DNA of 33,407 nt from an uncultured Candidatus Saccharibacteria bacterium (GCA_964362385.1 CAYIEH010000004.1:1-33407); one strand, 5' to 3'. Counted from the first letter of the stretch, positions 7,322 to 22,027 are shown. Notes: a model not told the origin generated them from the sequence alone. Numbers and translations are program-made.

Positions 7322-8089
7322 TTAAATCTGCATCATCACTTTCTTGATCCGATCCCAATCGTGTTTCGGCTTCCAGGAAACATTCCCGGCCTCGACATCC
7401 TTGGCAACAAACGGGTCGTCTTGCTTGTATTCCGGCAACGTTTTATTCCCCAAAGTGATAATGGGAATACCATCACCTCCGTCAAGAGGATACGCATCTC
7501 TGTACTTAACCGAGCGGTTATACCATCCCGCCAAACCGACGACCTTTGCTCCACATTTCCAGGCTAATTCCAGAAGGGACATAGTGGTTGCAAAGTTGTT
7601 CATCAGATCTTCACAAATGACCACCTTCTCGTCAGGGAGAATATGTCCGTCGTGTCGTCCCCATTTCCAGGATGACTTTTCACGAGCTGTGACGGTTTTG
7701 AGAACATGTATTTCTTTTTCAGGATACACATACCTTGCGCCGCTCACATATGCAAGCATTTCCGCCACTGGCTTTCCGCCTTCGGGAGCAGCCATAAATA
7801 CATTTACTCTCCCCACCTTCTTGATAATTTCAGCCCCAAGCAATCTGGCGAAATGGCAGGTGAGTTTGGGATAGTGTTCCATCTTGGCGAAGTTAAGATA
7901 CGCGTCTCCAACCCAGTGAAGACCTTCTCCATAGGTAGCGGTGTAGCCAACTAACGGGCCCAGTCTATTACCCTCAGCGTCTTTAGGACATTCGTAATAC
8001 CCATCAACTCCGTCGAGCACCTTAAGAATATCTTTGTCATAATTGTTTAAAAGATCTGAAACCTGAGACGGCATTAATATTTTCTGCAT
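7322..8089 (-). CDS. type I phosphoribosyltransferase-fold protein, OPRTase-like with a divergent PRPP loop
   Basis: EKVVICEDLMNNFATTMS matches the acidic-hydrophobic PRPP-binding loop position. Paired with pyrF 11 nt upstream. I prefer the second ATG (8089), which follows SD AAAGGAGAAAGA; the ORF-track start is 8104. Confidence 0.55.
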   Translation of the reverse strand: MQKILMPSQVSDLLNNYDKDILKVLDGVDGYYECPKDAEGNRLGPLVGYTATYGEGLHWVGDAYLNFAKMEHYPKLTCHFARLLGAEIIKKVGRVNVFMAAPEGGKPVAEMLAYVSGARYVYPEKEIHVLKTVTAREKSSWKWGRHDGHILPDEKVVICEDLMNNFATTMSLLELAWKCGAKVVGLAGWYNRSVKYRDAYPLDGGDGIPIITLGNKTLPEYKQDDPFVAKDVEAGNVSWKPKHDWDRIKKVMMQI

Positions 8090-8100
8090 TCTTTCTCCTT

Positions 8101-8997
8101 TCATTCCAAATCGTTAATATCCAGTACTGCTTTCCGTATCTGCTCCTTAAGCTCTAATGCCGCCCGGCCCGCTGCTTCGGCGAAATCCATTCCCATACTG
8201 GCAAACGTAATTCCTGACGAAGAGTTAATCGCTATAGAACTCGGTCCTCTGTATGAAGCCTTCACGGTTTCTTTTACGAACCCTTCCTGGGTTCCAATCC
8301 CAGGAATCAGAAACCACAGCTTGTCACCGACAATTTCTCTGACGCGCGATAAATGCCAAGAAAAAATTTCTCCCGAGCCCTTTTTGATCTCGTAGGCTGC
8401 TGCCATAACAAGACCAGTGTTTTCAACAACGCCAAGCTCTTCTGCCCAGCGCAGTATAGTTTCAGCCATGAATTCCCAGTAGAATCTTCCGTCCGCGAGC
8501 TTTACATCCTGAGTTTCTCTGGCCGATTTGTTGCTTGTGTGACACAATCCAACAATGGCTCTGCCGAGATTGTCTTTATCAATAAGCTGTTCCATACAAT
8601 CCTTACCCATGTAAGGGCTGAAGTTCATGCCATCAACGCCATCAATATCAAAATGGGCAATGCGATAGCGTTGCTGGGTTCTGTCGATATCACCGCGTTT
8701 GCAATCGAGAAACACCGGAATATCCGGGTGTTTACGATGAATGTGATTGACAATAGCCTGAAGCGCTTTTTGTCCTTCCAAGATGGCTTCGTAGTGAGCC
8801 TTCTGCGGTTTGAACATTGACGCATATGGTGCTGTCGCATCCACGATCTCAATCATCTGAGTCGCAACCTGACCCCATAAAGAGCCTTTCTTGTTGATAC
8901 AATCAGGAACTTTTTCCGGAAGCGGATCAAGTCCTACACACAGTTCTGTTTTTTGTGTCGCCTGCCTTGCCTTAAGCTTTTCTCTGAAACTCTTCAT
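8101..8997 (-). CDS. pyrF: orotidine 5'-phosphate decarboxylase, long (type 2) form
   Basis: LCVGLDP and FLDCKRGDIDRT (D-x-K-x-x-D-I) motifs, ~298 aa. SD AAAGGAGAAAAGA precedes the ATG. Confidence 0.8.
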   Translation of the reverse strand: MKSFREKLKARQATQKTELCVGLDPLPEKVPDCINKKGSLWGQVATQMIEIVDATAPYASMFKPQKAHYEAILEGQKALQAIVNHIHRKHPDIPVFLDCKRGDIDRTQQRYRIAHFDIDGVDGMNFSPYMGKDCMEQLIDKDNLGRAIVGLCHTSNKSARETQDVKLADGRFYWEFMAETILRWAEELGVVENTGLVMAAAYEIKKGSGEIFSWHLSRVREIVGDKLWFLIPGIGTQEGFVKETVKASYRGPSSIAINSSSGITFASMGMDFAEAAGRAALELKEQIRKAVLDINDLE

Positions 8998-9194
8998 TCT
9001 TTTCTCCTTTCTGCTCCTGTTAGATAGTTAATAAGATATTTTATCTTGAAACTTGTAAAAAAATCTACCCCTAAATTATCATTAATAATATAATTTGTCC
9101 AGTAAATTATTCTTCTACAGAAAACATTGATACTCGAGGATTATTCCCGAACCATTCAGTATTTAGCAGCTGTATCTTAAAACCAAAAGGCGCC

Positions 9195-9232
9195 AATAAA
9201 AAATCCCTGCTAGCCTAAAAAGGCAAGCAGGG
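9195..9232 (-). terminator. intrinsic terminator after the DnaB-like gene
   Basis: Stem CCCTGCTAGCC/GGCAAGCAGGG (9205-9215 / 9222-9232, one mismatch), followed on the minus strand by ATTTTTTATT. Confidence 0.6.
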
Positions 9233-9250
9233 TTATTATAAAACTCAATT

Positions 9251-10555
9251 TCAGTTGTCCCTCCAATTACACAAATGTCCGTAGAACTTCGCATCCACTA
9301 TGACTGCCGGTCCGCCTTTGGCAATTATAATCTTGCCATTTTGAGGCGCTCCATTGGCAGAAGTCTTTTCATGATAATCTTCCCGGTGAAGCAGAAAAAC
9401 CATGTCAGCCAAATCTTCTATATTGCCGCTGTCTTTAAGATCGGATAAACGCGGCAAGCTGTCTTTTTCTTCTTCAGAAGTGCGATTAATTTGGCTTGAT
9501 GCCGACGTCGGCGTTTTAACTTCATTAACGCACCCGCGCAAGGCCTCGAGAATTTTATCCATGCTCTCTTTTTTCGTACGGCACTTTTCCGGCCAATTCA
9601 AATCCTGAAGATTCTCAATTACTATTAATCCCAGCTCTCCGATTTTGCCGCGTAGCGCTTTTATTCCGGAAATTATTGAAAACACATTCATAGAACTCTC
9701 AAATTTCACATGGAGTTTGGATTCATTGATTTTCTGGTGGGCTTTTCTGACTTTTTCCATTTCCTTTGCCGACACCTTTCCCCGTTTAAGGTCGTTGAAA
9801 TCAATTTCGCACATGGCTGAGAGTAATCTGAGAAAAATAGTTTCTTTAGTATGATTAGATGATCCGAAATAAACCGCCGGAAAACCGTCTTCAATGCAAA
9901 TTTTTCTCAAAAAGCTCAACTGCATTGCCGTCTTACCCATACCGGCTCTTCCGCCGATTATGGTTAAGTTTTTGGCAGGAAAACCCGCAATATATTTATT
10001 CAAACACTCTAATGGAGTTTCCTTGAAATAGGCAATGTGATCCGTCAAATTCTCTTCGCTCACTGACATACGGCCAACTTCTTCAGAACCGCACCGGCTT
10101 GAAATTTGCCTTAGCGCTTCTTGGCTTTTAAAAAGCAAAAGAGGTAAATCTTCGGCTTCTTCATAAACCATTTGCGCTATCTTGATTGAATTTTGAAGTA
10201 ATTTCCTGAGAAGCGATTTTTCTTTAACGATCTTCGCGTGGTATTTTACATTAGCTGACGTGGGAATGGTCTCGGCGAGCATACTAACATACTGTTCTCC
10301 TCCGATCATTTCCAAATCTCCGTTATTAATCAGTTTATCCGCTAAAGTAATAATGTCGGCTTCCTTTCCTTCTGCTGCGAGTTCCAAAATCGCGGCATAA
10401 ATCTTTCGGTGGTTTTCACGGTAAAAATCATCAGTCACCAAAATTTCTTTAGCAACCTGAATCGCGACTCCATCCAAAATCATAGCTCCTAAGACCGACT
10501 GCTCTGCTTCAAGATTTTGGGGCGGCAGCTTTTCCAAATGTTCTATTTTTTTCAT
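9251..10555 (-). CDS. DnaB-family helicase homolog with degenerate catalytic motifs, RT-associated
   Basis: N-terminal LPPQNLEAEQSVLGAMILD, Walker A GGRAGMGKT, SQINR, LSDLKDSGNIEDLAD. However FSLEM is FGSSN, IDYLQL is IENLQD, and KQRNGP is K-GGP. I start it at the ATG at 10555, which has SD AAAGGAGA and overlaps the RT stop as ATGA; the ORF-track start is 10609. Confidence 0.8.
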   Translation of the reverse strand: MKKIEHLEKLPPQNLEAEQSVLGAMILDGVAIQVAKEILVTDDFYRENHRKIYAAILELAAEGKEADIITLADKLINNGDLEMIGGEQYVSMLAETIPTSANVKYHAKIVKEKSLLRKLLQNSIKIAQMVYEEAEDLPLLLFKSQEALRQISSRCGSEEVGRMSVSEENLTDHIAYFKETPLECLNKYIAGFPAKNLTIIGGRAGMGKTAMQLSFLRKICIEDGFPAVYFGSSNHTKETIFLRLLSAMCEIDFNDLKRGKVSAKEMEKVRKAHQKINESKLHVKFESSMNVFSIISGIKALRGKIGELGLIVIENLQDLNWPEKCRTKKESMDKILEALRGCVNEVKTPTSASSQINRTSEEEKDSLPRLSDLKDSGNIEDLADMVFLLHREDYHEKTSANGAPQNGKIIIAKGGPAVIVDAKFYGHLCNWRDN

Positions 10556-11559
10556 CTCGTCTCCTTTGCCTGATATTCCAGCCATGGCTGCAAAAGCCAC
10601 TTCGGCCAATTGTTTTCATTGCCATAGATGCATCTTATGGCATTAACTCTTCCCAGTACTTCGCCACGAGAATACGTTCCATATCTGATTGCCGCATACA
10701 TTATTCTCCTATATTCTTTTTTCTTGCGGCGGCAAATATGAATTTTATCATTGACCACAGTTAACCCAAGCGCGTGGGGAATCGTTTTCCCTAAATTATC
10801 CTTGGTTTTTTCTGATTTAATGCTGAAACCGAACTTGGCCGGAATACTCAACAGCTCTTGTTTTACTTCAGAAACAATTATTTCTCCGGCGAAATTAAAG
10901 TCATCAACATAAACCGCCCAAAAAATATTATTTTTCCTGCACACAACATCAATCTCTTCACACATTGGTCTGTAAACCAGATTCAGCAGGATAGGACTCG
11001 CAGATGCGCCTTGGGGCAATCTTCGCTGGCCGTGGTAATAATAAGTCAAAAACCAGGCCAATGATTTTGCCACAGATTCATCAATCCCCAATCTCGCCAA
11101 AGTTTTCTCCACGTATTCTTCTTTAATACTGGGAAAAGCTTGGGCAATGTCAAAAGCAAAAAAATGCTTCTTGCCTAAAAGTCTTTGTATGGCTTTTTTT
11201 GAATTCCTCTCCCTTACGAAACCGTACGCATTATCGTGAGCTGAAAACTTTGAGTCCAACCAATCTTTAACGGCGCGATAAACTTTTTGCACTTCGGGAT
11301 GCGGTTGTAGAATTTCCCGTTCTTTGTTTTTTTCCCGCAAAAAGAAAATTCTAAAGCCGTAATAAAAAGTCGCTTTCACGGTTTTGCCTTTTTTAAAAAG
11401 CTCTGCCGTTGTTTTTGCAGATTTCAAAATCCTGAAAGCTTTGCGGATTTGCTTTTTAGGCAGTCCGATTAATCCTGAAAGAACTCCCAAAGTCCAAAGA
11501 AACCGAACTTGGGGAGAAACCGCTGACAACTTTTCTGGCGCTTCAGTTTCTTTAGACAT
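10552..11559 (-). CDS. retron-type reverse transcriptase
   Basis: 335 aa. Motifs: FYYGFRIFFLREKNKEREILQPHPEVQKV, AYGFVRERN, FAFDIAQAFPSI, LPQGASASPILLNL, YVDDFNFAG (YVDD at 10900-10911), GFSIKSEKTK, and retron-like LGLTVVNDKIHICRRKKKEYR. No maturase, endonuclease or other fused domain. SD GGAG lies 6 nt before the ATG. Confidence 0.85.
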   Translation of the reverse strand: MSKETEAPEKLSAVSPQVRFLWTLGVLSGLIGLPKKQIRKAFRILKSAKTTAELFKKGKTVKATFYYGFRIFFLREKNKEREILQPHPEVQKVYRAVKDWLDSKFSAHDNAYGFVRERNSKKAIQRLLGKKHFFAFDIAQAFPSIKEEYVEKTLARLGIDESVAKSLAWFLTYYYHGQRRLPQGASASPILLNLVYRPMCEEIDVVCRKNNIFWAVYVDDFNFAGEIIVSEVKQELLSIPAKFGFSIKSEKTKDNLGKTIPHALGLTVVNDKIHICRRKKKEYRRIMYAAIRYGTYSRGEVLGRVNAIRCIYGNENNWPKWLLQPWLEYQAKETR

Positions 11560-11600
11560 TAATGTCTCCTTTCACTTGGCATTTTGATTTTTAAAAGAAA

Positions 11601-11836
11601 TTGCAGGCAGACTTGGCTGGAATTGAAGCCCCTTTAATAAATCACCAGATTCGAGGTGCGCATCGTTAACGTAAGGAAAAGCCAATGCAACCTCGGGGGT
11701 CATTGTAGGGGGTGTCCCCCTACATTCTGTTACTGACATTTGATCCGCCGTCCGATTCAGAAAGCGGGTTTGAGACCTATTACTCGTGGCTATACCAGAG
11801 TCTTTTAGTCTCTCCTTACTGCCAGTCTGCCTGCAA
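11601..11836 (-). ncRNA. candidate retron-like ncRNA (msr-msd-like) closed by terminal inverted repeats
   Basis: TTGCAGGCAGACT(T)GGC at 11601-11617 is the reverse complement of 11821-11836. Internal perfect GC hairpin TGTAGGGG-GTGT-CCCCTACA (11704-11724). Second stem GAGGTGC/GCA(A)CCTC (11653-11696). Sits 42 nt upstream of the RT ATG and directly downstream of a promoter. Confidence 0.5.
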
Positions 11837-11848
11837 TCTTCTGCTTTT

Positions 11849-11877
11849 TTTATACAGATAAACATAAGCAATGTCAA
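11849..11877 (-). promoter_or_regulatory. sigma70-like promoter TTGACA-17-TATAAA driving the ncRNA/RT operon
   Basis: Minus strand: -35 at 11877-11872, -10 at 11854-11849, 12 nt before the first inverted-repeat arm. Confidence 0.5.
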
Positions 11878-11929
11878 TTAAAAAAACAAGCGTGTTTTTC
11901 CGCCTGTTCTTATGTATTCCACGAAATTT

Positions 11930-12388
11930 TTATATTCCTAATTTCTTTTTAACCAAATCGCTTATTGTTTTTGAATCCGCTCTGCCTTTCGTTTCTTTTG
12001 CCACCTCTCCCATTACTTTGCCTATATCTTTTGCGGTGCTTGCGCCGGTTTTTTCAATCGCCTCGCTTACGATTTTTTCAATTTCCTGTTCAGAAAGCTG
12101 TTTTGGCAAATACTCCTGAATAATTTCCAATTCTTTCAGCTCTTTTTGAGCTAAATCTTCGCGGTTGCCTTGTTTATAAAGCTCGTACGATTCTTTTCTT
12201 TTTTTCGCTTCTTTTGACAAAACGTCAACGACGTCGTCATCGGTCAAAGTTGAGTCCTGACCTTTTCCCTTTTTCTCAATTTCTTTATTGTGAAGAGCAG
12301 CAATGAGCATTCTTAATACTCCGGTCTTTTCAGCGTCTTTGCTCCTTAATGCTTCCTTTAAATTATCGGTAATTTTTTCTTTCAGCAT
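11930..12388 (-). CDS. yqeY: GatB/YqeY-domain protein
   Basis: MLKEKITDNLKEALRSKDAEKTGVLRMLIAAL ... KDIGKVMGEV, typical of the YqeY family. Confidence 0.8.
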   Translation of the reverse strand: MLKEKITDNLKEALRSKDAEKTGVLRMLIAALHNKEIEKKGKGQDSTLTDDDVVDVLSKEAKKRKESYELYKQGNREDLAQKELKELEIIQEYLPKQLSEQEIEKIVSEAIEKTGASTAKDIGKVMGEVAKETKGRADSKTISDLVKKKLGI

Positions 12389-12488
12389 CGCTTCGCTGTA
12401 TCGATACTAATATACTAATTTTACTAATAATACAAATATATTTATATTCGTATAATTAGTATTAATTCGCATATTGACATCGAGATTA

Positions 12489-12713
12489 TTACATTGAGCC
12501 CATTTTTTTAGTCTTCTCCACTTCTTTTCTTTTTCCTTCGCGATATAAAGCCGACAATCTCCTTTTATTTTTATTAACAGAACGATGTTTGTATCTTTTC
12601 TTTTTTGCTTCGCGCAAAACTCCGCTTTGCTGCATCTTTTTTGAAAAGCGGTAAAGAAAAGCGCTCATTGATTCTCCTCCTCTGCGTTTTAATTCCATTG
12701 TTTGAACCGGCAT
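12489..12713 (-). CDS. rpsU: 30S ribosomal protein S21
   Basis: 74 aa, very basic, with the ESMSAFLYRFSKKMQQSGVLREAKKKRYKHRS pattern of S21. Confidence 0.8.
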   Translation of the reverse strand: MPVQTMELKRRGGESMSAFLYRFSKKMQQSGVLREAKKKRYKHRSVNKNKRRLSALYREGKRKEVEKTKKMGSM

Positions 12714-12740
12714 AATGCAAACTGCGCGAATTTATAATAA

Positions 12741-12769
12741 CGCCGCGAATAAAATTTTAATTCGCGGCG
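12741..12769 (-). terminator. 10-bp hairpin between the HIT gene and rpsU
   Basis: CGCCGCGAAT / ATTCGCGGCG with a 9-nt AT loop. AT-rich tail on the minus strand. Confidence 0.45.
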
Positions 12770-12822
12770 CGACTCTTGCGGGAATGAGTCGAAGCTCAAA
12801 CGCATAAGTTCGCTGATCGGCA

Positions 12823-13230
12823 TTATGATTTAATAATTTTTTCTTTGATAATATCCAAACTTTCAGCCGGCGGATTGTCCACCACTGAATGAATTGACCC
12901 TCCTGAATCTCCCAGCCACCTGGGTATAATATGAATATGCAGATGGTCAATCGTCTGTCCGCTCACCTTACCATGGTTGATTCCGATTGTAAAGCCGTCT
13001 GGTAAAAGCGTTTTTTTTAACAATGCCGTCACATTTTTAACCGCTTTAAAAATTCCTTCAATTTTATCGTCTGGCAAATCTAAAATATTTTCCGCGTGAA
13101 CTTTCGGCAAAACCATCGTATGCCCCGGCGCTTTCGGATGGACATCTAAAATGGCGACGCTGTTATCGTCTTCGTAAATTATGCTGGCGCTTATTTCCTT
13201 GTTTGCGATTTTACAGAAAAGACAATCCAC
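12823..13230 (-). CDS. HIT-family (histidine triad) nucleotide hydrolase
   Basis: CLFCKI N-terminus and HLHIHIIPR histidine triad. GTG start. Confidence 0.85.
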   Translation of the reverse strand: MDCLFCKIANKEISASIIYEDDNSVAILDVHPKAPGHTMVLPKVHAENILDLPDDKIEGIFKAVKNVTALLKKTLLPDGFTIGINHGKVSGQTIDHLHIHIIPRWLGDSGGSIHSVVDNPPAESLDIIKEKIIKS

Positions 13231-13297
13231 AGATAGTAATTAGCCAATAGCGATTAGCCAATAGAATCCCTAGTGGCTAAACCCTAATAACTAGCGG

Positions 13298-14602
13298 CTA
13301 TTTTAGTTTCTTCTTCGCTTCCTCAACAACTTTTTTAAAAGACACGGTTTCCTGAACGCCGGTTCTCATATCTCTGATAATAATGCTTTCTTCAAAAACC
13401 TCTTTTTGCCCCAAAATCAAAGCCAAATCCGCTTTCTCTTTGTCGGCAATCCTTAATTGCGATTTCAGCGATTCCCTGCCGAACGATTCGCTGGTTTTTA
13501 CGCCTGACTTCCTGAATTCTTCAATTAAAGCCAGGCCCTTTTTCTTGGCCTCATCTCCGATGTGAATAAAAAATACTTTAGGGGGACTTTTAAGGGGCAT
13601 TGTTTTGCCCGTGCTTTTGATGATTTCAATAACTCTGTCAATCCCGACACTGCTTCCGACTGCAAACAATTTTCCCAATTTCAGCATCTCGGCCAAATAA
13701 TCATAGCGGCCGCCGCTGGCAATCGCAAAATTAAATCCTTCGGCAAAGATCTCAAAAACAGTTCTGTTGTAATAATCCAAACCCCTGACTAAAAAAGGAT
13801 CAACTAAATAAGGCAGTTTTAATTCGTCAAGAAATTCCAAAACTTTTTTAAAGTGGTTTTTGCAGGTCTCGCACAAAAAATCAAGGATAATCGGCGCTTC
13901 AACCCTGACAAGTAAACATTTTTCGTCTTTGCAATCAAGAAGCCTAAAAGAGTTGACGTTTAATCGGCGCTGGCAATCCTTGCAAATTTGTTTCTGATGT
14001 TTCCGGTAATAATTTTCCAGCTTCCTCTGGTAAGCGGAGCGGCACTTGGCGCAACCGATACTGTTTATATGAACGGTAAAATTCTTTAGTCTTAATTCTT
14101 CAAGCAGGCGATAGACGACGAGTATGGCTTGGGCGTCGTAAATCGGATCATTCTCGCCTCCCAGAATTTCAAAACCTGTCTGGAAAAATTGCCGAAATCT
14201 TCCGGCCTGGGGCTGTTCATATCTGAACATCAAACCTTCATAATAGAGTTTCAGCGGATGGCCAAACCGAGAAAATCCGTTTTCAAAATAAGCCCTGACA
14301 ATCGGCGCCGTGCCTTCAGGCCTCAATACCAGCCTATCGCCGCCTTTTGACTTAATAAAAAACATCTGTTTCTCCACAATGTCGGTTTCCTTTCCGACGG
14401 TCTTTTCAAAAAGTTCCGCCATTTCCACAATGGGCGTATCGATCCTTAAAAAGTTATAAAATTCGCCGATATTTTTTGCAGCCTGCCTTGCTTTATCCCA
14501 AAAGGGCTGGTCTTCGGGAACAATATCATGCATTCCTTTGGGAGACTGGAAAAGATTTTTTTTCCTTGAAGACTCTTTTGATTTTTTGGAAGTTCTTGCC
14601 AT
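13298..14602 (-). CDS. hisS: histidine--tRNA ligase
   Basis: GMHDIVPED, LRPEGTAPIVRAY, Cys-rich insertion domain, C-terminal anticodon-binding region. Confidence 0.9.
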   Translation of the reverse strand: MARTSKKSKESSRKKNLFQSPKGMHDIVPEDQPFWDKARQAAKNIGEFYNFLRIDTPIVEMAELFEKTVGKETDIVEKQMFFIKSKGGDRLVLRPEGTAPIVRAYFENGFSRFGHPLKLYYEGLMFRYEQPQAGRFRQFFQTGFEILGGENDPIYDAQAILVVYRLLEELRLKNFTVHINSIGCAKCRSAYQRKLENYYRKHQKQICKDCQRRLNVNSFRLLDCKDEKCLLVRVEAPIILDFLCETCKNHFKKVLEFLDELKLPYLVDPFLVRGLDYYNRTVFEIFAEGFNFAIASGGRYDYLAEMLKLGKLFAVGSSVGIDRVIEIIKSTGKTMPLKSPPKVFFIHIGDEAKKKGLALIEEFRKSGVKTSESFGRESLKSQLRIADKEKADLALILGQKEVFEESIIIRDMRTGVQETVSFKKVVEEAKKKLK

Positions 14603-14635
14603 TTCAAAAAAATATTTTAAGCGCTTGGAACAAAT

Positions 14636-15184
14636 TTAATAAGCCGGCCTTTCAAAAGCCATCACTTTATTTAGCGGCCAAAGTCTCAGCCAGACAACGC
14701 CTATGATATCGGATTTTCCCAATGACCCCCATTGGCGGGAATCAAAACTCGCATCCCGATTGTCGCCCAAAACGAAATACTCACTATCTTTTAACGTCGC
14801 ATCCCTGTCTCCCGTTGTTTTAAGTTTTGCGGGCAAATAACGTTCGCCGACTAAAAATCCTTTCGGATTTTGATTATTAAAAACGTAAACTTCTCCGTTT
14901 TTAATCCTTACCCTTTCTCCGGGCAAACCGATTATTCTTTTGATGAAATAAGTGCTTTTGTCTCCCGGATAGCGAAAAACCACAACATCGCCCCTTTGAG
15001 GCTCCCTGAATTGATAAGAAATTTCATTGATTAAAAGATAATCGCCAGTATGAAAATTGGGTTCCATACTGGAGCCGTTAACCAAAAACGGCTGAACCAA
15101 AAAATAGCGGACTCCAACAACCACCAACACGGCAACCAAAACGATTTCCAGTATTTCCCTTAAAGTGTACAAAAATGACTTCAT
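14636..15184 (-). CDS. lepB: signal peptidase I
   Basis: NGSSMEPNF (catalytic Ser), FIKRIIGLPGE (Lys), GDNRDASFDSRQWG. Confidence 0.9.
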   Translation of the reverse strand: MKSFLYTLREILEIVLVAVLVVVGVRYFLVQPFLVNGSSMEPNFHTGDYLLINEISYQFREPQRGDVVVFRYPGDKSTYFIKRIIGLPGERVRIKNGEVYVFNNQNPKGFLVGERYLPAKLKTTGDRDATLKDSEYFVLGDNRDASFDSRQWGSLGKSDIIGVVWLRLWPLNKVMAFERPAY

Positions 15185-21574: not shown

Positions 21575-21926
21575 GGGAGCGCAAGTTTCGACAATGATTT
21601 GATTAAGAAAATCGCAAGCCGAGGATGATTTCTCACCTCGTTAATCAAGGAATCAAAAACATAACTGCCAACAGAAATGTTGCTCCCGCTTTAGCTTTTG
21701 CTTAAAGCGGCATCCCATGCTAATCGCTTAAGTTAGCAGTACGGGGTGTTATACATTAAGCTTGTTTGCTAAATTGCCAAAGTTTAGCAAAGACAAAATT
21801 TTGGCAAAGATTTTTGAAGATTTTGCTTAATTCTTACTTCTTAAATCTTACATCCGAATTAAGCTAAGCTTGTAGAAATTTTCTTGAGAAATCGTTGGAC
21901 GAGGGTTCAATCCCTCCGCTTCCACC
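21575..21926 (+). ncRNA. ssrA: tmRNA
   Basis: 5' GGGAGCG pairs with 3' CGCTTCC, including the G3:U wobble. UUCGAC box. GCCGAGG...CCUCGU pseudoknot-1-type pairing. Tag reading frame 21667-21705 encodes ANRNVAPALAFA-stop. T-arm GAGGGTTCAATCCCTC, then ACC. Lies immediately downstream of smpB. Confidence 0.9.
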
Positions 21927-22027
21927 CCGTTAGAAAGCAGAAAATACTGGATTAGTTTTTAAAAAACTGATATTAAGGCATAAAATATTAATATACCCAA
22001 TTAATGAATTGTCTGTTTTCTAACGAG
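21925..22027. repeat. repeat family A-like element (CCCCGTTAGAA ... TTCTAACGAGG) abutting the ssrA 3' end
   Basis: Terminal inverted repeats CCCCGTTAGAAAGCAG / CTGTTTTCTAACGAGG. TCCACC precedes the element and TCCACCA follows it. Confidence 0.55.

What the first reader, a model, noticed from the sequence alone, without database searches (positions are those of the whole stretch)
11601..11836. IR-closed structured non-coding region upstream of the RT (candidate msr-msd)
Seen: TTGCAGGCAGACTTGGC (11601-11617) pairs with GCCAGTCTGCCTGCAA (11821-11836). On the RT strand the 5' arm is followed immediately by AGUAAGG, so a G sits directly 3' of the stem, where retrons place the branching guanosine. 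Internal elements are TGTAGGGG-loop-CCCCTACA (11704-11724) and GAGGTGC/GCA(A)CCTC (11653-11696). The 101-aa ORF called here (11572-11877) starts inside the -35 box, has no SD, and spans all these stems.
Inference: the region is RNA, not protein. Which half would be msr and which msd cannot be decided from one sequence.
Basis: partly seen in the sequence, partly recalled or inferred. Interest (0 to 1): 0.75.

Follow-up and report, generated by a model that had tools for sequence, protein, structure and literature searches.

The report
Retron-like RNA with DnaB-like partner
The inverted repeat closes a real, conserved structured RNA that sits upstream of a retron-type reverse transcriptase and a degenerate DnaB-like protein, forming a three-part cassette found in candidate-phyla-radiation bacteria and not yet described for that group.

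Summary
A 14-nt perfect inverted repeat, about 17 bp with one bulge, closes a 253-nt region on the RT strand that folds far better than shuffles (z = -7.5). The same arrangement lies upstream of every related RT with enough sequence: 21 distinct RNAs of 253-468 nt. The terminal stem covaries: cognate arms give -21.4 kcal/mol against -11.8 for non-cognate arms (p = 1e-10). So do internal helices P2, P3 and P4. The 101-aa ORF is open only in this window, so the region is RNA.

The 5' half is conserved and msr-like. The 3' half is fast-diverging and msd-like. An invariant G lies four bases earlier, inside the stem.

The RT is closest to solved retron RTs but lacks the NAXXH histidine. In every locus with downstream sequence it is directly followed, in this window translationally coupled, by a DnaB-family protein. 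That protein keeps the P-loop but has lost the Walker-B Asp, the catalytic Glu and the Arg finger.

Best reading: a retron-like ncRNA-RT-effector cassette of Patescibacteria. msDNA synthesis is inferred, not shown. It is a new variant of a known kind. A 2026 preprint reports an analogous RT-DnaB_C pairing in other phyla.

The parts
11849..11877 (-). Promoter of the ncRNA: -35 TTGACA (11877-11872), 17-nt spacer, extended -10 TG-n-TATAAA (TG 11856-11855, -10 at 11854-11849). The predicted start is about 11842, 4-5 nt before the stem.
   Evidence: Read from the sequence. A TTGACA, a spacer of about 17 nt and a TGnTAnnAn -10 lie at the same place before the 5' arm in the related loci where enough upstream DNA was read. 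The consensus scan missed it because the -10 ends in A, not T.
11586..11838 (-). The whole structured ncRNA (253 nt). It is the shortest member of a family of 253-468 nt.
11821..11837 (-). P1 5' arm (a1-like), AUUGCAGGCAGACUGGC. It contains the invariant G at 11823.
   Evidence: G in 21 of 21.
11600..11617 (-). P1 3' arm (a2-like), GCCAAGUCUGCCUGCAAU, with one bulged A.
11772..11812 (-). P2 (GAGACU 11812-11807 / AGGUCUC 11778-11772), enclosing hairpin P2a (11802-11782). The second hairpin P2b of the other family members is absent here.
   Evidence: RNAalifold gives 4 P2 pairs with compensatory changes in 2, 6, 8 and 5 sequences. Single-sequence folds give the same three-way junction.
11745..11767 (-). 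P3 hairpin CCGCUUUCUGAAUCGGACGGCGG, the most conserved element.
   Evidence: 9 pairs, 99.5% of cells paired, 3 pairs with changes on both sides. CM hit.
11725..11744 (-). J3/4 linker. In relatives it pairs with the P2a loop (candidate pseudoknot). This pairing is weak in the window.
11704..11724 (-). P4 hairpin UGUAGGGGG-ACA-CCCCCUACA.
   Evidence: 4 of 6 pairs with compensatory changes.
11695..11701 (-). Conserved GACCCC(C) motif 3' of P4.
   Evidence: CCC invariant.
11618..11694 (-). Variable, msd-like domain.
   Evidence: 86-243 nt and one to five hairpins across the family; 68% identity against 94% for the 5' domain in the closest pair.
11586..11599 (-). Conserved tail UUCUUUUAAAAAUC directly after the 3' arm.
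   Evidence: A UUCUUUAAAAAUU-like motif is present in all 21 sequences.
10552..11559 (-). Retron-type reverse transcriptase, 335 aa. YVDD is intact and it has its own GGAG ribosome-binding site.
9251..10555 (-). DnaB-like protein, 434 aa. Its ATG overlaps the RT stop codon (ATGA), with an AAGGAG ribosome-binding site inside the RT 3' end. The P-loop is intact and the other catalytic motifs are degenerate.

Best explanation
The region encodes the non-coding RNA of a retron-like three-part cassette: own promoter, structured ncRNA, retron-clade RT, DnaB-like protein. A sigma-70-type promoter starts transcription a few bases before the 5' arm. The RNA folds so that a 14-17-bp terminal stem (a1/a2-like) brings its two ends together. 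The conserved 5' domain comprises P2 with P2a (and P2b in relatives), P3, P4 and a GACCCC motif, with a loop-linker pseudoknot in relatives. It is the likely RT-recognition, msr-like part. The fast-evolving 3' domain next to the 3' arm is the likely template, msd-like part.

By analogy with retrons, the RT would prime on a 2'-OH at the inner end of the terminal stem. The invariant G at window 11823 is the best candidate. The RT would then copy the variable domain into single-stranded DNA. The co-translated DnaB-like protein has an intact P-loop and N-domain but lacks the catalytic Glu, the Walker-B Asp and the Arg finger. It is the third component. It is probably a ring-shaped, non-hydrolysing DNA-binding effector or partner held by, or loaded on, the RT-RNA-cDNA complex. 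It is probably not the housekeeping helicase.

Shown: the RNA structure and its conservation, the strand, the promoter, the non-coding status, the RT class, the strict RT-DnaB-like linkage, and the degenerate motifs. Inferred: reverse transcription, the branch point, the role of the DnaB-like protein, and any anti-phage function.
For: Structure beyond chance: z = -7.5. One family: about 59 RT homologues at 43-61% identity, mostly from Patescibacteria records.

The RNA sits upstream of the RT in all 21 distinct loci with enough upstream DNA. A covariance model of P3-P4 hits once per locus, on the RT strand, upstream of the RT, at 51-80 bits, with only four weak opposite-strand matches overlapping the same sites (12-19 bits) and nothing at any other site in 256 kb.

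Covariation:
- P1 cognate against non-cognate arms: -21.4 against -11.8 kcal/mol, p = 1e-10.
- P2: compensatory changes in 2-8 sequences per pair.
- P3 and P4: 98.8% of cells paired against 87.9% in shuffles. 8 pairs and 32 cells have changes on both sides, 0 of 500 shuffles reach this, and slid controls give about 50%.
- Pseudoknot: cognate against non-cognate -8.9 against -6.6 kcal/mol, p = 0.003.

G-U pairs in P3 and the better fold fix the strand. No conserved ORF. The 5' domain and the arm plus tail are conserved while the middle is variable.

The best matches among solved structures are all retron RTs: Ec86 at 1e-23, then Ec83, Kva2, Ec67, Ec78, Eco8. The 25 best PADLOC matches listed (of 49) are all RT models of the retron set, most of them named by retron type. 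The catalytic Y-x-DD is invariant.

The DnaB-like gene directly follows the RT in 22 of 22 loci analysed, plus 5 further loci. It has an ATGA overlap with the RT stop in the window. The reverse look-up also finds an RT upstream of a DnaB-like protein.

Between L033 and L034, similarity covers only the stretch from promoter to DnaB-like gene, and the flanks are unrelated.

The DnaB-like family is about as rare as the RT family. About 19-20 of the best 150 representatives carry the ENLQ / no-RESG signature, out of 36,191 DnaB-family representatives.
Against: No msDNA, transcript ends or branch can be observed from sequence.

The NAXXH histidine, a signature of retron RTs, is absent. RT scores are below the family cut-offs: retron_St85_RT 112 bits against a cut-off of 235, and a best PADLOC score of 138 bits.

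The invariant G is base-paired two pairs inside the stem rather than being the first unpaired base. The two pairs beyond it covary (and reading).

The variable domain is usually multi-hairpin (two to five in 20 of 21), not the single or double long hairpin of classical msd.

The cassette sits among housekeeping genes with no defence genes nearby. I could not check whether these genomes hold a second, canonical dnaB.

The pseudoknot is weak in the window itself (-5 kcal/mol).
Confidence: 0.6

Rival explanations
1. The RNA is a dedicated partner of the RT-DnaB-like pair but is not reverse-transcribed in the retron manner. It would act as a scaffold or regulatory RNA, or as a template used with different priming (as in some defence-associated RTs), and no 2'-5' branched msDNA would be made.
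For: The 5' domain is unusually large and elaborate for an msr: a three-way junction, a pseudoknot, and near-invariant P3 and P4 sequences. The NAXXH histidine, thought to be important for initiation, is missing (PMC7736814). The invariant G lies inside the helix. The variable domain is not one long hairpin.
Against: The RT's nearest relatives by sequence are all msDNA-making retron RTs. The hallmark end-to-end a1/a2-type stem is conserved. The split into a conserved half and a hypervariable half matches msr/msd.
Confidence: 0.25
2. The region is a cis-regulatory leader (attenuator or riboswitch-like 5' UTR) that controls a housekeeping dnaB operon. The terminal stem plus the U-rich tail would act as a terminator, and the RT would be a passenger.
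For: A long G+C-rich stem is followed directly by UUUCUUUU. In 8 loci an extra hairpin precedes the same tail. The neighbours are housekeeping genes. The DnaB-like protein is full length with an N-domain.
Against: In this data set the RNA occurs only with the RT. The RT, the RNA and the DnaB-like gene move together as one block between unrelated flanks. The DnaB-like protein lacks the catalytic Glu, the Walker-B Asp and the Arg finger and scores below the TIGR00665 cut-off. Its family is as rare as the RT family. A hypervariable 86-243-nt insert is not expected in a riboswitch.
Confidence: 0.07
3. The cassette is a member of the 'TXI_noncan_h' lineage described in bioRxiv 10.64898/2026.05.14.725207: type-XI-like retron RTs without a protease and with a DnaB_C protein at +1. 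On that reading it is already described.
For: The gene order is the same (RT, then a DnaB_C protein immediately downstream). That lineage also has a conserved ncRNA with a1/a2-like repeats upstream of the RT.
Against: That lineage is reported only from Bacillota and Bacteroidota, and the paper's tables hold no Patescibacteria. Its ncRNA is a compact double stem-loop of 23 bp lying 22-104 bp from the start codon, not a 253-468-nt multi-helix RNA. The window RT scores higher on type III-A, II-A and VI models (138, 115, 112 bits) than on type XI models (99 bits). No sequences were available for a direct comparison.
Confidence: 0.12
4. The 101-aa ORF (11572-11877) is a real gene, and the inverted repeat is incidental.
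For: The frame is open across the whole region in this window.
Against: The ORF has a TTG start inside the -35 box and no Shine-Dalgarno sequence. It has no Pfam or PADLOC hit. Every sense frame is interrupted in all 20 homologous regions. Substitutions preserve base pairs rather than codons.
Confidence: 0.01

Closest known systems
Classical retrons (msr-msd ncRNA + RT + effector; e.g. Ec86/Eco1, Ec83, Ec67, Ec78)
   Same: The RT is closest to these in sequence, through the thumb region. The ncRNA gene lies immediately upstream on the same strand. An end-to-end inverted repeat (a1/a2) closes the RNA. One half is conserved and the other variable. A third gene is co-transcribed. The layout is a compact cassette of about 2.7 kb.
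   Different: There is no NAXXH histidine, and VTG is replaced by xLG. The RNA is 253-468 nt, with a three-way junction, a candidate pseudoknot and near-invariant hairpin sequences. The candidate branch G is paired inside the stem. The variable domain is usually multi-hairpin. The partner is a DnaB-family protein, which is not among the effectors of the 13 types in PMC7736814 (neither 'helicase' nor 'DnaB' occurs in that text). The hosts are Patescibacteria.
TXI_noncan_h, type-XI-like retron lineage with DnaB_C neighbours (bioRxiv 10.64898/2026.05.14.725207, computational only)
   Same: A stand-alone retron-like RT is followed at +1 by a DnaB_C-domain protein. A conserved upstream ncRNA has a1/a2-like repeats. 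The function is unknown.
   Different: It is reported in Bacillota and Bacteroidota, not Patescibacteria. Its ncRNA is a compact 23-bp double stem-loop. Association with DnaB_C is 69% there, against 100% here. Some of its loci lie next to CRISPR-Cas, and none do here. The window RT is not preferentially type-XI-like by HMM score. Relatedness could not be tested.
Type III-A retrons (best PADLOC model RT_III-A; e.g. Retron-Eco11, PMC12746101)
   Same: This is the highest-scoring RT model (138 bits, 7e-41).
   Different: The score is modest and close to those of several other types. The PRTase-type effector of type III-A is not part of the cassette. The pyrE-like ORF at 7322-8104 pairs with pyrF and is not conserved next to the RT in other loci.
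Replicative helicase DnaB (TIGR00665; PF00772 + PF03796)
   Same: The architecture is full length: N-terminal domain, linker, RecA-like domain, Walker A GxGKT and the SQxNR motif.
   Different: It scores 284 bits against a cut-off of 385. Walker B DYLQ becomes ENLQ. The catalytic Glu of SLEM is replaced by S, Q, G, A or H in most members. The Arg finger of RESGxIEQDAD is replaced by K or lost. There are two 2-residue deletions and a shortened C-terminus. All these changes are shared by the RT-linked proteins only.

Membership tests
Retron (features as listed in Mestre et al. 2020, PMC7736814) | RT belongs to the retron/retron-like clade | tested here: met
   The 25 PADLOC hits shown (of 49) are all RT models of the retron set, most named by retron type. 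The best solved-structure matches are all retron RTs, Ec86 at 1e-23. The best NCBIfam hit is retron_St85_RT, though below its cut-off (112 against 235 bits).
Retron (features as listed in Mestre et al. 2020, PMC7736814) | Region X NAXXH motif between RT2 and RT3 (H the most conserved residue) | tested here: not met
   In the profile alignment to Ec86, N-A-T-P-H aligns with A123-x-x-x-L127. Shifting the alignment by one residue gives no His either.
Retron (features as listed in Mestre et al. 2020, PMC7736814) | Region Y VTG triplet in RT7 (G the most conserved residue) | tested here: inconclusive
   VTG aligns with x-L264-G265. The G is invariant in the family, but V and T are not kept.
Retron (features as listed in Mestre et al. 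2020, PMC7736814) | Contiguous ncRNA upstream of the RT on the same strand, closed by a1/a2 inverted repeats | tested here: met
   A terminal helix is present in 21 of 21 family RNAs and covaries. The strand is fixed by the promoter, G-U pairs and fold energy.
Retron (features as listed in Mestre et al. 2020, PMC7736814) | Conserved branching G at the 3' end of a1 | tested here: inconclusive
An invariant G (window 11823, 21 of 21) lies 4 nt earlier but is paired, and two further covarying pairs follow it.
Retron (features as listed in Mestre et al. 2020, PMC7736814) | msd folds into a single or double long hairpin of variable sequence | tested here: inconclusive
   A hypervariable domain lies next to the 3' arm. 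It is 86-243 nt and mostly has 2-5 hairpins.
Retron (features as listed in Mestre et al. 2020, PMC7736814) | Produces msDNA joined by a 2'-5' bond | not testable with these tools
   This needs nucleic-acid extraction and mapping.
Retron (features as listed in Mestre et al. 2020, PMC7736814) | Specifically associated accessory or effector gene | tested here: met
   The DnaB-like gene is at +1 in every locus with downstream DNA. It co-moves with the RT. Effector activity was not tested.
TXI_noncan_h (bioRxiv 10.64898/2026.05.14.725207) | Type-XI-like RT without a protease; DnaB_C protein at +1; compact a1/a2 double stem-loop 22-104 bp upstream; Bacillota or Bacteroidota host | tested here: inconclusive
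   The gene order matches. The host phylum, the size of the RNA and the HMM preference (XI 99 bits, below III-A 138 bits) do not match. No sequences were available to compare.
Replicative DNA helicase DnaB (TIGR00665 equivalog) | Score above the curated cut-off; Walker B Asp, catalytic Glu and Arg finger present | tested here: not met
   284 bits against a cut-off of 385. The motifs are ENLQ, GSSN/GAQM and DLK/DIFGK instead of DYLQ, SLEM and DLRESG.
Any Rfam 15 RNA family (including retron msr) | Match to a curated covariance model | tested here: not met
   There is no hit in 11500-11950 even at E <= 10 beyond three chance-level matches outside the RNA (11526-11588, 11878-11946).

The most novel reading that the evidence does not exclude
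The RT-linked DnaB-like protein is the only DnaB of these reduced genomes. On that reading the cassette is not a defence retron but part of chromosome replication. An RT and its pseudoknotted RNA would make a cDNA or RNP that loads, primes or regulates the replicative helicase in a subset of candidate-phyla-radiation bacteria.
Probability: 0.08. Interest if true: 0.92.

Novelty: new variant of a known kind. Interest (0 to 1): 0.62.

Why it matters
This would extend retron-type systems into Patescibacteria, where the review read here (PMC8632793) reports that about 80% of known RTs belong to diversity-generating retroelements.

It adds a partner class not listed among the 13 retron types: a DnaB-family protein whose hydrolysis motifs are degenerate. 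That points to a link between RT-made DNA and the replication machinery, or mimicry of it.

The RNA is a well-supported new structured RNA family that is absent from Rfam. Its terminal stem, three-way junction and candidate pseudoknot are supported by covariation, so it is a good target for structural work.

Practically, a 335-aa RT that may copy a naturally variable insert of 86-243 nt would be of interest for retron-based DNA production, provided msDNA synthesis is confirmed.

Tried and rejected
- Rfam, at gathering thresholds and at E <= 10: nothing relevant.
- Consensus promoter scan: 0 sites. This is a false negative, because the -10 is TATAAA with A at position 6. The promoter was read by eye and is conserved in position across loci.
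- Viral contigs: no relative of the RT, so there is no sign of a phage origin.
- Cluster look-up for organism names: no names returned.
- Column-wise helix detection on the MAFFT alignment failed for the length-variable P2a, P2b and pseudoknot. I replaced it with single-sequence folds, cognate/non-cognate duplex tests and a model-guided alignment.
- The pseudoknot is convincing in L029, L031, L003, L001, L011, L010 and L002 but weak in the window (-5 kcal/mol). I report it as a family feature only.
- A helix between a G-run in J3/4 and the ACCCC motif, and a closing helix for the variable domain, were seen by eye in many sequences but not tested formally. I do not claim them.
- Type III-A membership is rejected. 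The PRTase-like ORF at 7322-8104 is a pyrE-like gene next to pyrF and is not conserved beside the RT.
- The preprint's supplementary tables hold no Patescibacteria entries and no sequences.

Full report
OBSERVATION. The perfect part is 11600-11613 / 11824-11837 (14 nt). With one bulged A it extends to about 17 bp, 11600-11617 / 11821-11837. The internal hairpin at 11704-11724 (9 bp) and the GAGGTGC/GCAACCTC stem (11653-11694) are also present. On the RT (-) strand the 261-nt stretch folds at -102 kcal/mol against -67.0 +/- 4.7 for dinucleotide shuffles (z = -7.5). The opposite strand folds less well (z = -4.75).

SURROUNDINGS. Directly downstream on the same strand lies a 335-aa reverse transcriptase (10552-11559). 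It matches Pfam RVT_1, and the 25 PADLOC hits shown (of 49) are all RT models of the retron set, most named by retron type, the best being RT_III-A at 138 bits. Its stop codon overlaps (ATGA) the start of a 434-aa DnaB-family protein (9251-10555), and an AAGGAG ribosome-binding site lies inside the RT 3' end. Upstream of the RNA is a TTGACA, a 17-nt spacer and a TG-n-TATAAA promoter (11877-11849). The TTG 'start' of the 101-aa ORF is the TTG of the -35 box. The wider window is housekeeping: YqeY, HIT, HisRS, pyrF, YchF and tmRNA.

THE FAMILY. The RT has about 59 homologues at 43-61% identity. Loci came from species-representative genomes (8 loci; most records are titled Moraniibacteriota, Parcubacteria, Patescibacteria or Saccharibacteria), from metagenomes (20 loci) and from protein look-ups. 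None came from viral contigs. In all 22 loci analysed, and in 5 more fetched later, the RT is immediately followed by the same DnaB-like gene, while the flanking genes differ. Starting from a DnaB-like protein (P0079) also leads back to an RT of the family directly upstream. Between the close pair L033 and L034, nucleotide similarity (74%) begins about 30 nt before the RNA, so it includes the promoter. It ends about 90 nt after the DnaB-like stop, and the flanks are unrelated and encode different genes. The unit is therefore promoter, ncRNA, RT, DnaB-like gene.

THE RNA. I delimited 21 non-redundant RNAs of 253-468 nt. The window's is the shortest (alignment A2). All 21 form a terminal helix between the 5' end and a 3' segment. 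The arm sequences differ between subgroups (for example CAGGCAGACUGGC, GAGCGGGUAA..GAC, AAUCAGCGAGUGACU.GAC, UUUAGGUAU..GGG). Each 5' arm pairs far better with its own 3' arm than with those of other members: -21.4 against -11.8 kcal/mol, Mann-Whitney p = 1e-10, with the cognate arm ranked first or second in 18 of 21.

The inner end of the stem is a conserved junction, 5'-G-N-N-A / 5'-(R)CA-N'-N'-C. The G is invariant. The third pair flips between C-G and G-C, and the second varies among G-C, G-U and A-U.

Inside the stem, the 5' domain has the following parts:
- P2 closes a three-way junction with hairpins P2a and P2b. The window lacks P2b. Evidence: with P2 compensatory changes in 2, 6, 8 and 5 sequences.
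- P3 is the near-invariant hairpin CCGCUUUCUGAaUCGGACGGCGG.
- P4 is the hairpin CCAGGGG-ACA-CCCCUGG, followed by ACCCC.

On a model-guided alignment, P3 and P4 have 98.8% of cells paired against 87.9% in shuffles. 8 pairs and 32 cells have changes on both sides, a level that 0 of 500 shuffles reach, and partners slid by 1-3 columns give about 50%. The caveat is that the alignment was fitted to the model.

In many members the P2a loop is complementary to the P3-P4 linker: CUGCCA/UGGCAG, GCUCUCA/UGAGAGC, AAAUGUC/GACAUUU, UCCCG/CGGGA, UCACC/GGUGA. Cognate against non-cognate energies are -8.9 against -6.6 kcal/mol (p = 0.003). This candidate pseudoknot is weak in the window.

The 3' domain is 86-243 nt, mostly with 2-5 hairpins, and evolves fast. 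In the closest pair it is 68% identical, against 94% for the 5' domain and 93% for the 3' arm plus tail. A UUCUUUAAAAAUU-like tail follows the 3' arm in all members. In 8 loci an extra hairpin is inserted before it.

A covariance model of P3-P4 hits exactly once per locus, on the RT strand and upstream of the RT. It finds no other site in 256 kb, only four weak opposite-strand matches (12-19 bits) overlapping the same hits. Those sequences trained the model, so the test shows specificity, not independence. Rfam has no matching family.

NOT A PROTEIN. The sense frame is stop-free only in the window. In all 20 other RNAs every sense frame has at least one stop. No ORF in this region clusters across loci. 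Substitutions conserve base pairs.

THE BRANCH-G CLAIM. The G that follows the stem in the window (11819) is U in 17 other members, C in 2 and A in 1, so it is not a conserved feature. The invariant G (11823) is the only plausible conserved candidate. It is paired, and two covarying pairs follow it. That differs from the textbook picture of an unpaired G at the helix end. The point stays open.

THE RT. A profile of the family finds retron RTs as its best solved relatives (Ec86 at 1e-23, Ec83, Kva2, Ec67, Ec78, Eco8) and group II intron RTs only after them. The catalytic Y-x-DD is invariant. Two retron signatures named by Mestre et al. (PMC7736814) are only partly present. NAXXH aligns with A-x-x-x-L, with no His. 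VTG aligns with x-L-G, with the G kept. Scores on curated retron models are below their cut-offs. It is a divergent retron-like RT and does not clearly belong to any one of the 13 types.

THE DnaB-LIKE PROTEIN. It is full length (PF00772 + PF03796) but below the TIGR00665 cut-off, at 284 against 385 bits. I aligned 19 RT-linked proteins with 6 canonical DnaBs. The RT-linked proteins keep Walker A (GxGKT), SQxNR and the N-domain. They share these derived changes:
- Walker B DYLQ becomes ENLQ.
- The catalytic Glu of SLEM is S, Q, G, A or H in most.
- The Arg finger of DLRESGxIEQDAD is K (the window subgroup) or lost.
- There are two 2-residue deletions and a shortened C-terminus.

The window protein's closest relatives (49-54%) sit on the same contigs as RT homologues. 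Identity then drops to about 35% with ordinary DnaBs of other phyla. A profile search of 1.84 billion representatives finds 36,191 DnaB-family proteins at E <= 1e-30. Only about 19-20 of the best 150 carry the ENLQ / no-RESG signature, and all the others are canonical. The family is therefore about as rare as the RT family. From this, from the relocating cassette and from the lost hydrolysis residues, I infer with roughly 80% confidence that it is a specialised paralogue and not the housekeeping helicase. I could not check the genomes for a second dnaB.

MECHANISM (inferred beyond the points above). The promoter drives the RNA and, by read-through, the RT and the translationally coupled DnaB-like protein. 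The terminal stem juxtaposes the RNA ends. The conserved 5' domain is the RT's recognition platform. By analogy with retrons, the RT primes at the inner end of the stem and copies the variable domain into single-stranded DNA. The DnaB-like ring binds ATP and probably ssDNA but is unlikely to hydrolyse ATP efficiently. It would be the effector or sensor partner, for example sequestered by or loaded on the RT-RNA-DNA complex and able to interfere with replication when released. An anti-phage role is plausible by analogy only. There are no defence neighbours, but these genomes are small and the contexts vary.

COMPARISON AND NOVELTY. The system works like a retron and is best filed as retron-like. 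One defining motif fails, and two features (the branch G and the msd hairpin) are inconclusive. The 13-type classification paper mentions neither helicases nor DnaB in its text. A May 2026 preprint describes a computationally defined lineage, TXI_noncan_h, in which type-XI-like RTs are followed by DnaB_C proteins in Bacillota and Bacteroidota, with a compact 23-bp ncRNA. Its tables hold no Patescibacteria. That is the closest described analogue, so the RT-DnaB idea is not entirely new. The Patescibacteria family, its large covarying RNA and the degenerate nature of the DnaB-like partner appear to be undescribed (literature searches). I rate it a new variant of a known kind, with interest 0.62.

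LIMITS. All functional steps are inference. The P3/P4 pair counts rest on an alignment fitted to the model. The P1 and pseudoknot tests use energies of cognate against non-cognate pairs among related sequences. Taxonomy rests on record titles of related loci, and the window itself was not placed.

Noticed in passing
window 10552-10555: The RT stop codon and the DnaB-like start codon overlap as ATGA, with an AAGGAG ribosome-binding site inside the RT 3' end. This suggests translational coupling of the two proteins.
   Followed up: yes
window 9251-10555, and the +1 gene in L001-L035: The RT-linked DnaB-family proteins share derived losses: Walker-B Asp becomes Glu (ENLQ), the catalytic Glu is lost, and the Arg finger is lost. 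Two small deletions are also shared. The P-loop and N-domain are kept, so they look like pseudo-helicases.
   Followed up: yes
window 21575-21927 (+): A tmRNA gene (Rfam RF00023, 146.8 bits; ARAGORN tag peptide ANRNVAPALAFA). This agrees with a chromosomal rather than a mobile-element context.
   Followed up: partly
window 7322-8997 (-): An OMP-decarboxylase gene (8101-8997) is followed by a 260-aa ORF with only a weak pyrE-type phosphoribosyltransferase match (35 bits). I considered it as a possible type-III-A-like PRTase effector, but it is not conserved next to the RT in other loci.
   Followed up: partly
L003, L004, L010, L017, L018, L006, L008, L022 (between the 3' arm and the tail; e.g. 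L004:2280-2336): Eight family members carry an extra G+C-rich hairpin (e.g. GUCCUUGCGUCAGA...UCUGACGCAGGGC) between the 3' arm of the terminal stem and the conserved UUCUUUAAAAA tail. It may be a terminator or a protein-binding site.
   Followed up: no
window 11586-11599 and the equivalent in all 21 RNAs: A conserved A/U-rich tail motif, UUCUUUAAAAAUU, lies immediately after the terminal stem. Its function is unknown (U-tract of a terminator, RT-binding site, or other).
   Followed up: no
L033:7759-7776 and 7818-7835: The variable domain of one relative contains an exact 18-nt direct repeat (GGTTGCAAATCGACACGC) 59 nt apart. This hints that the variable domain grows by internal duplication.
   Followed up: no
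window 11930-15184 versus L022 about 8500-12400: The window and the most distant family member L022 share a gene block (182/215-aa protein, HisRS, HIT, small ORF, YqeY). It lies upstream of the RNA in the window and downstream of the DnaB-like gene in L022, so the cassette or the block has moved.
   Followed up: partly
window 11782-11812: The window's RNA lacks hairpin P2b (GUUUCGG...CCGAAAU), which all 20 other members have. It also has the shortest variable domain, so it is a natural minimal version of the family RNA.
   Followed up: partly
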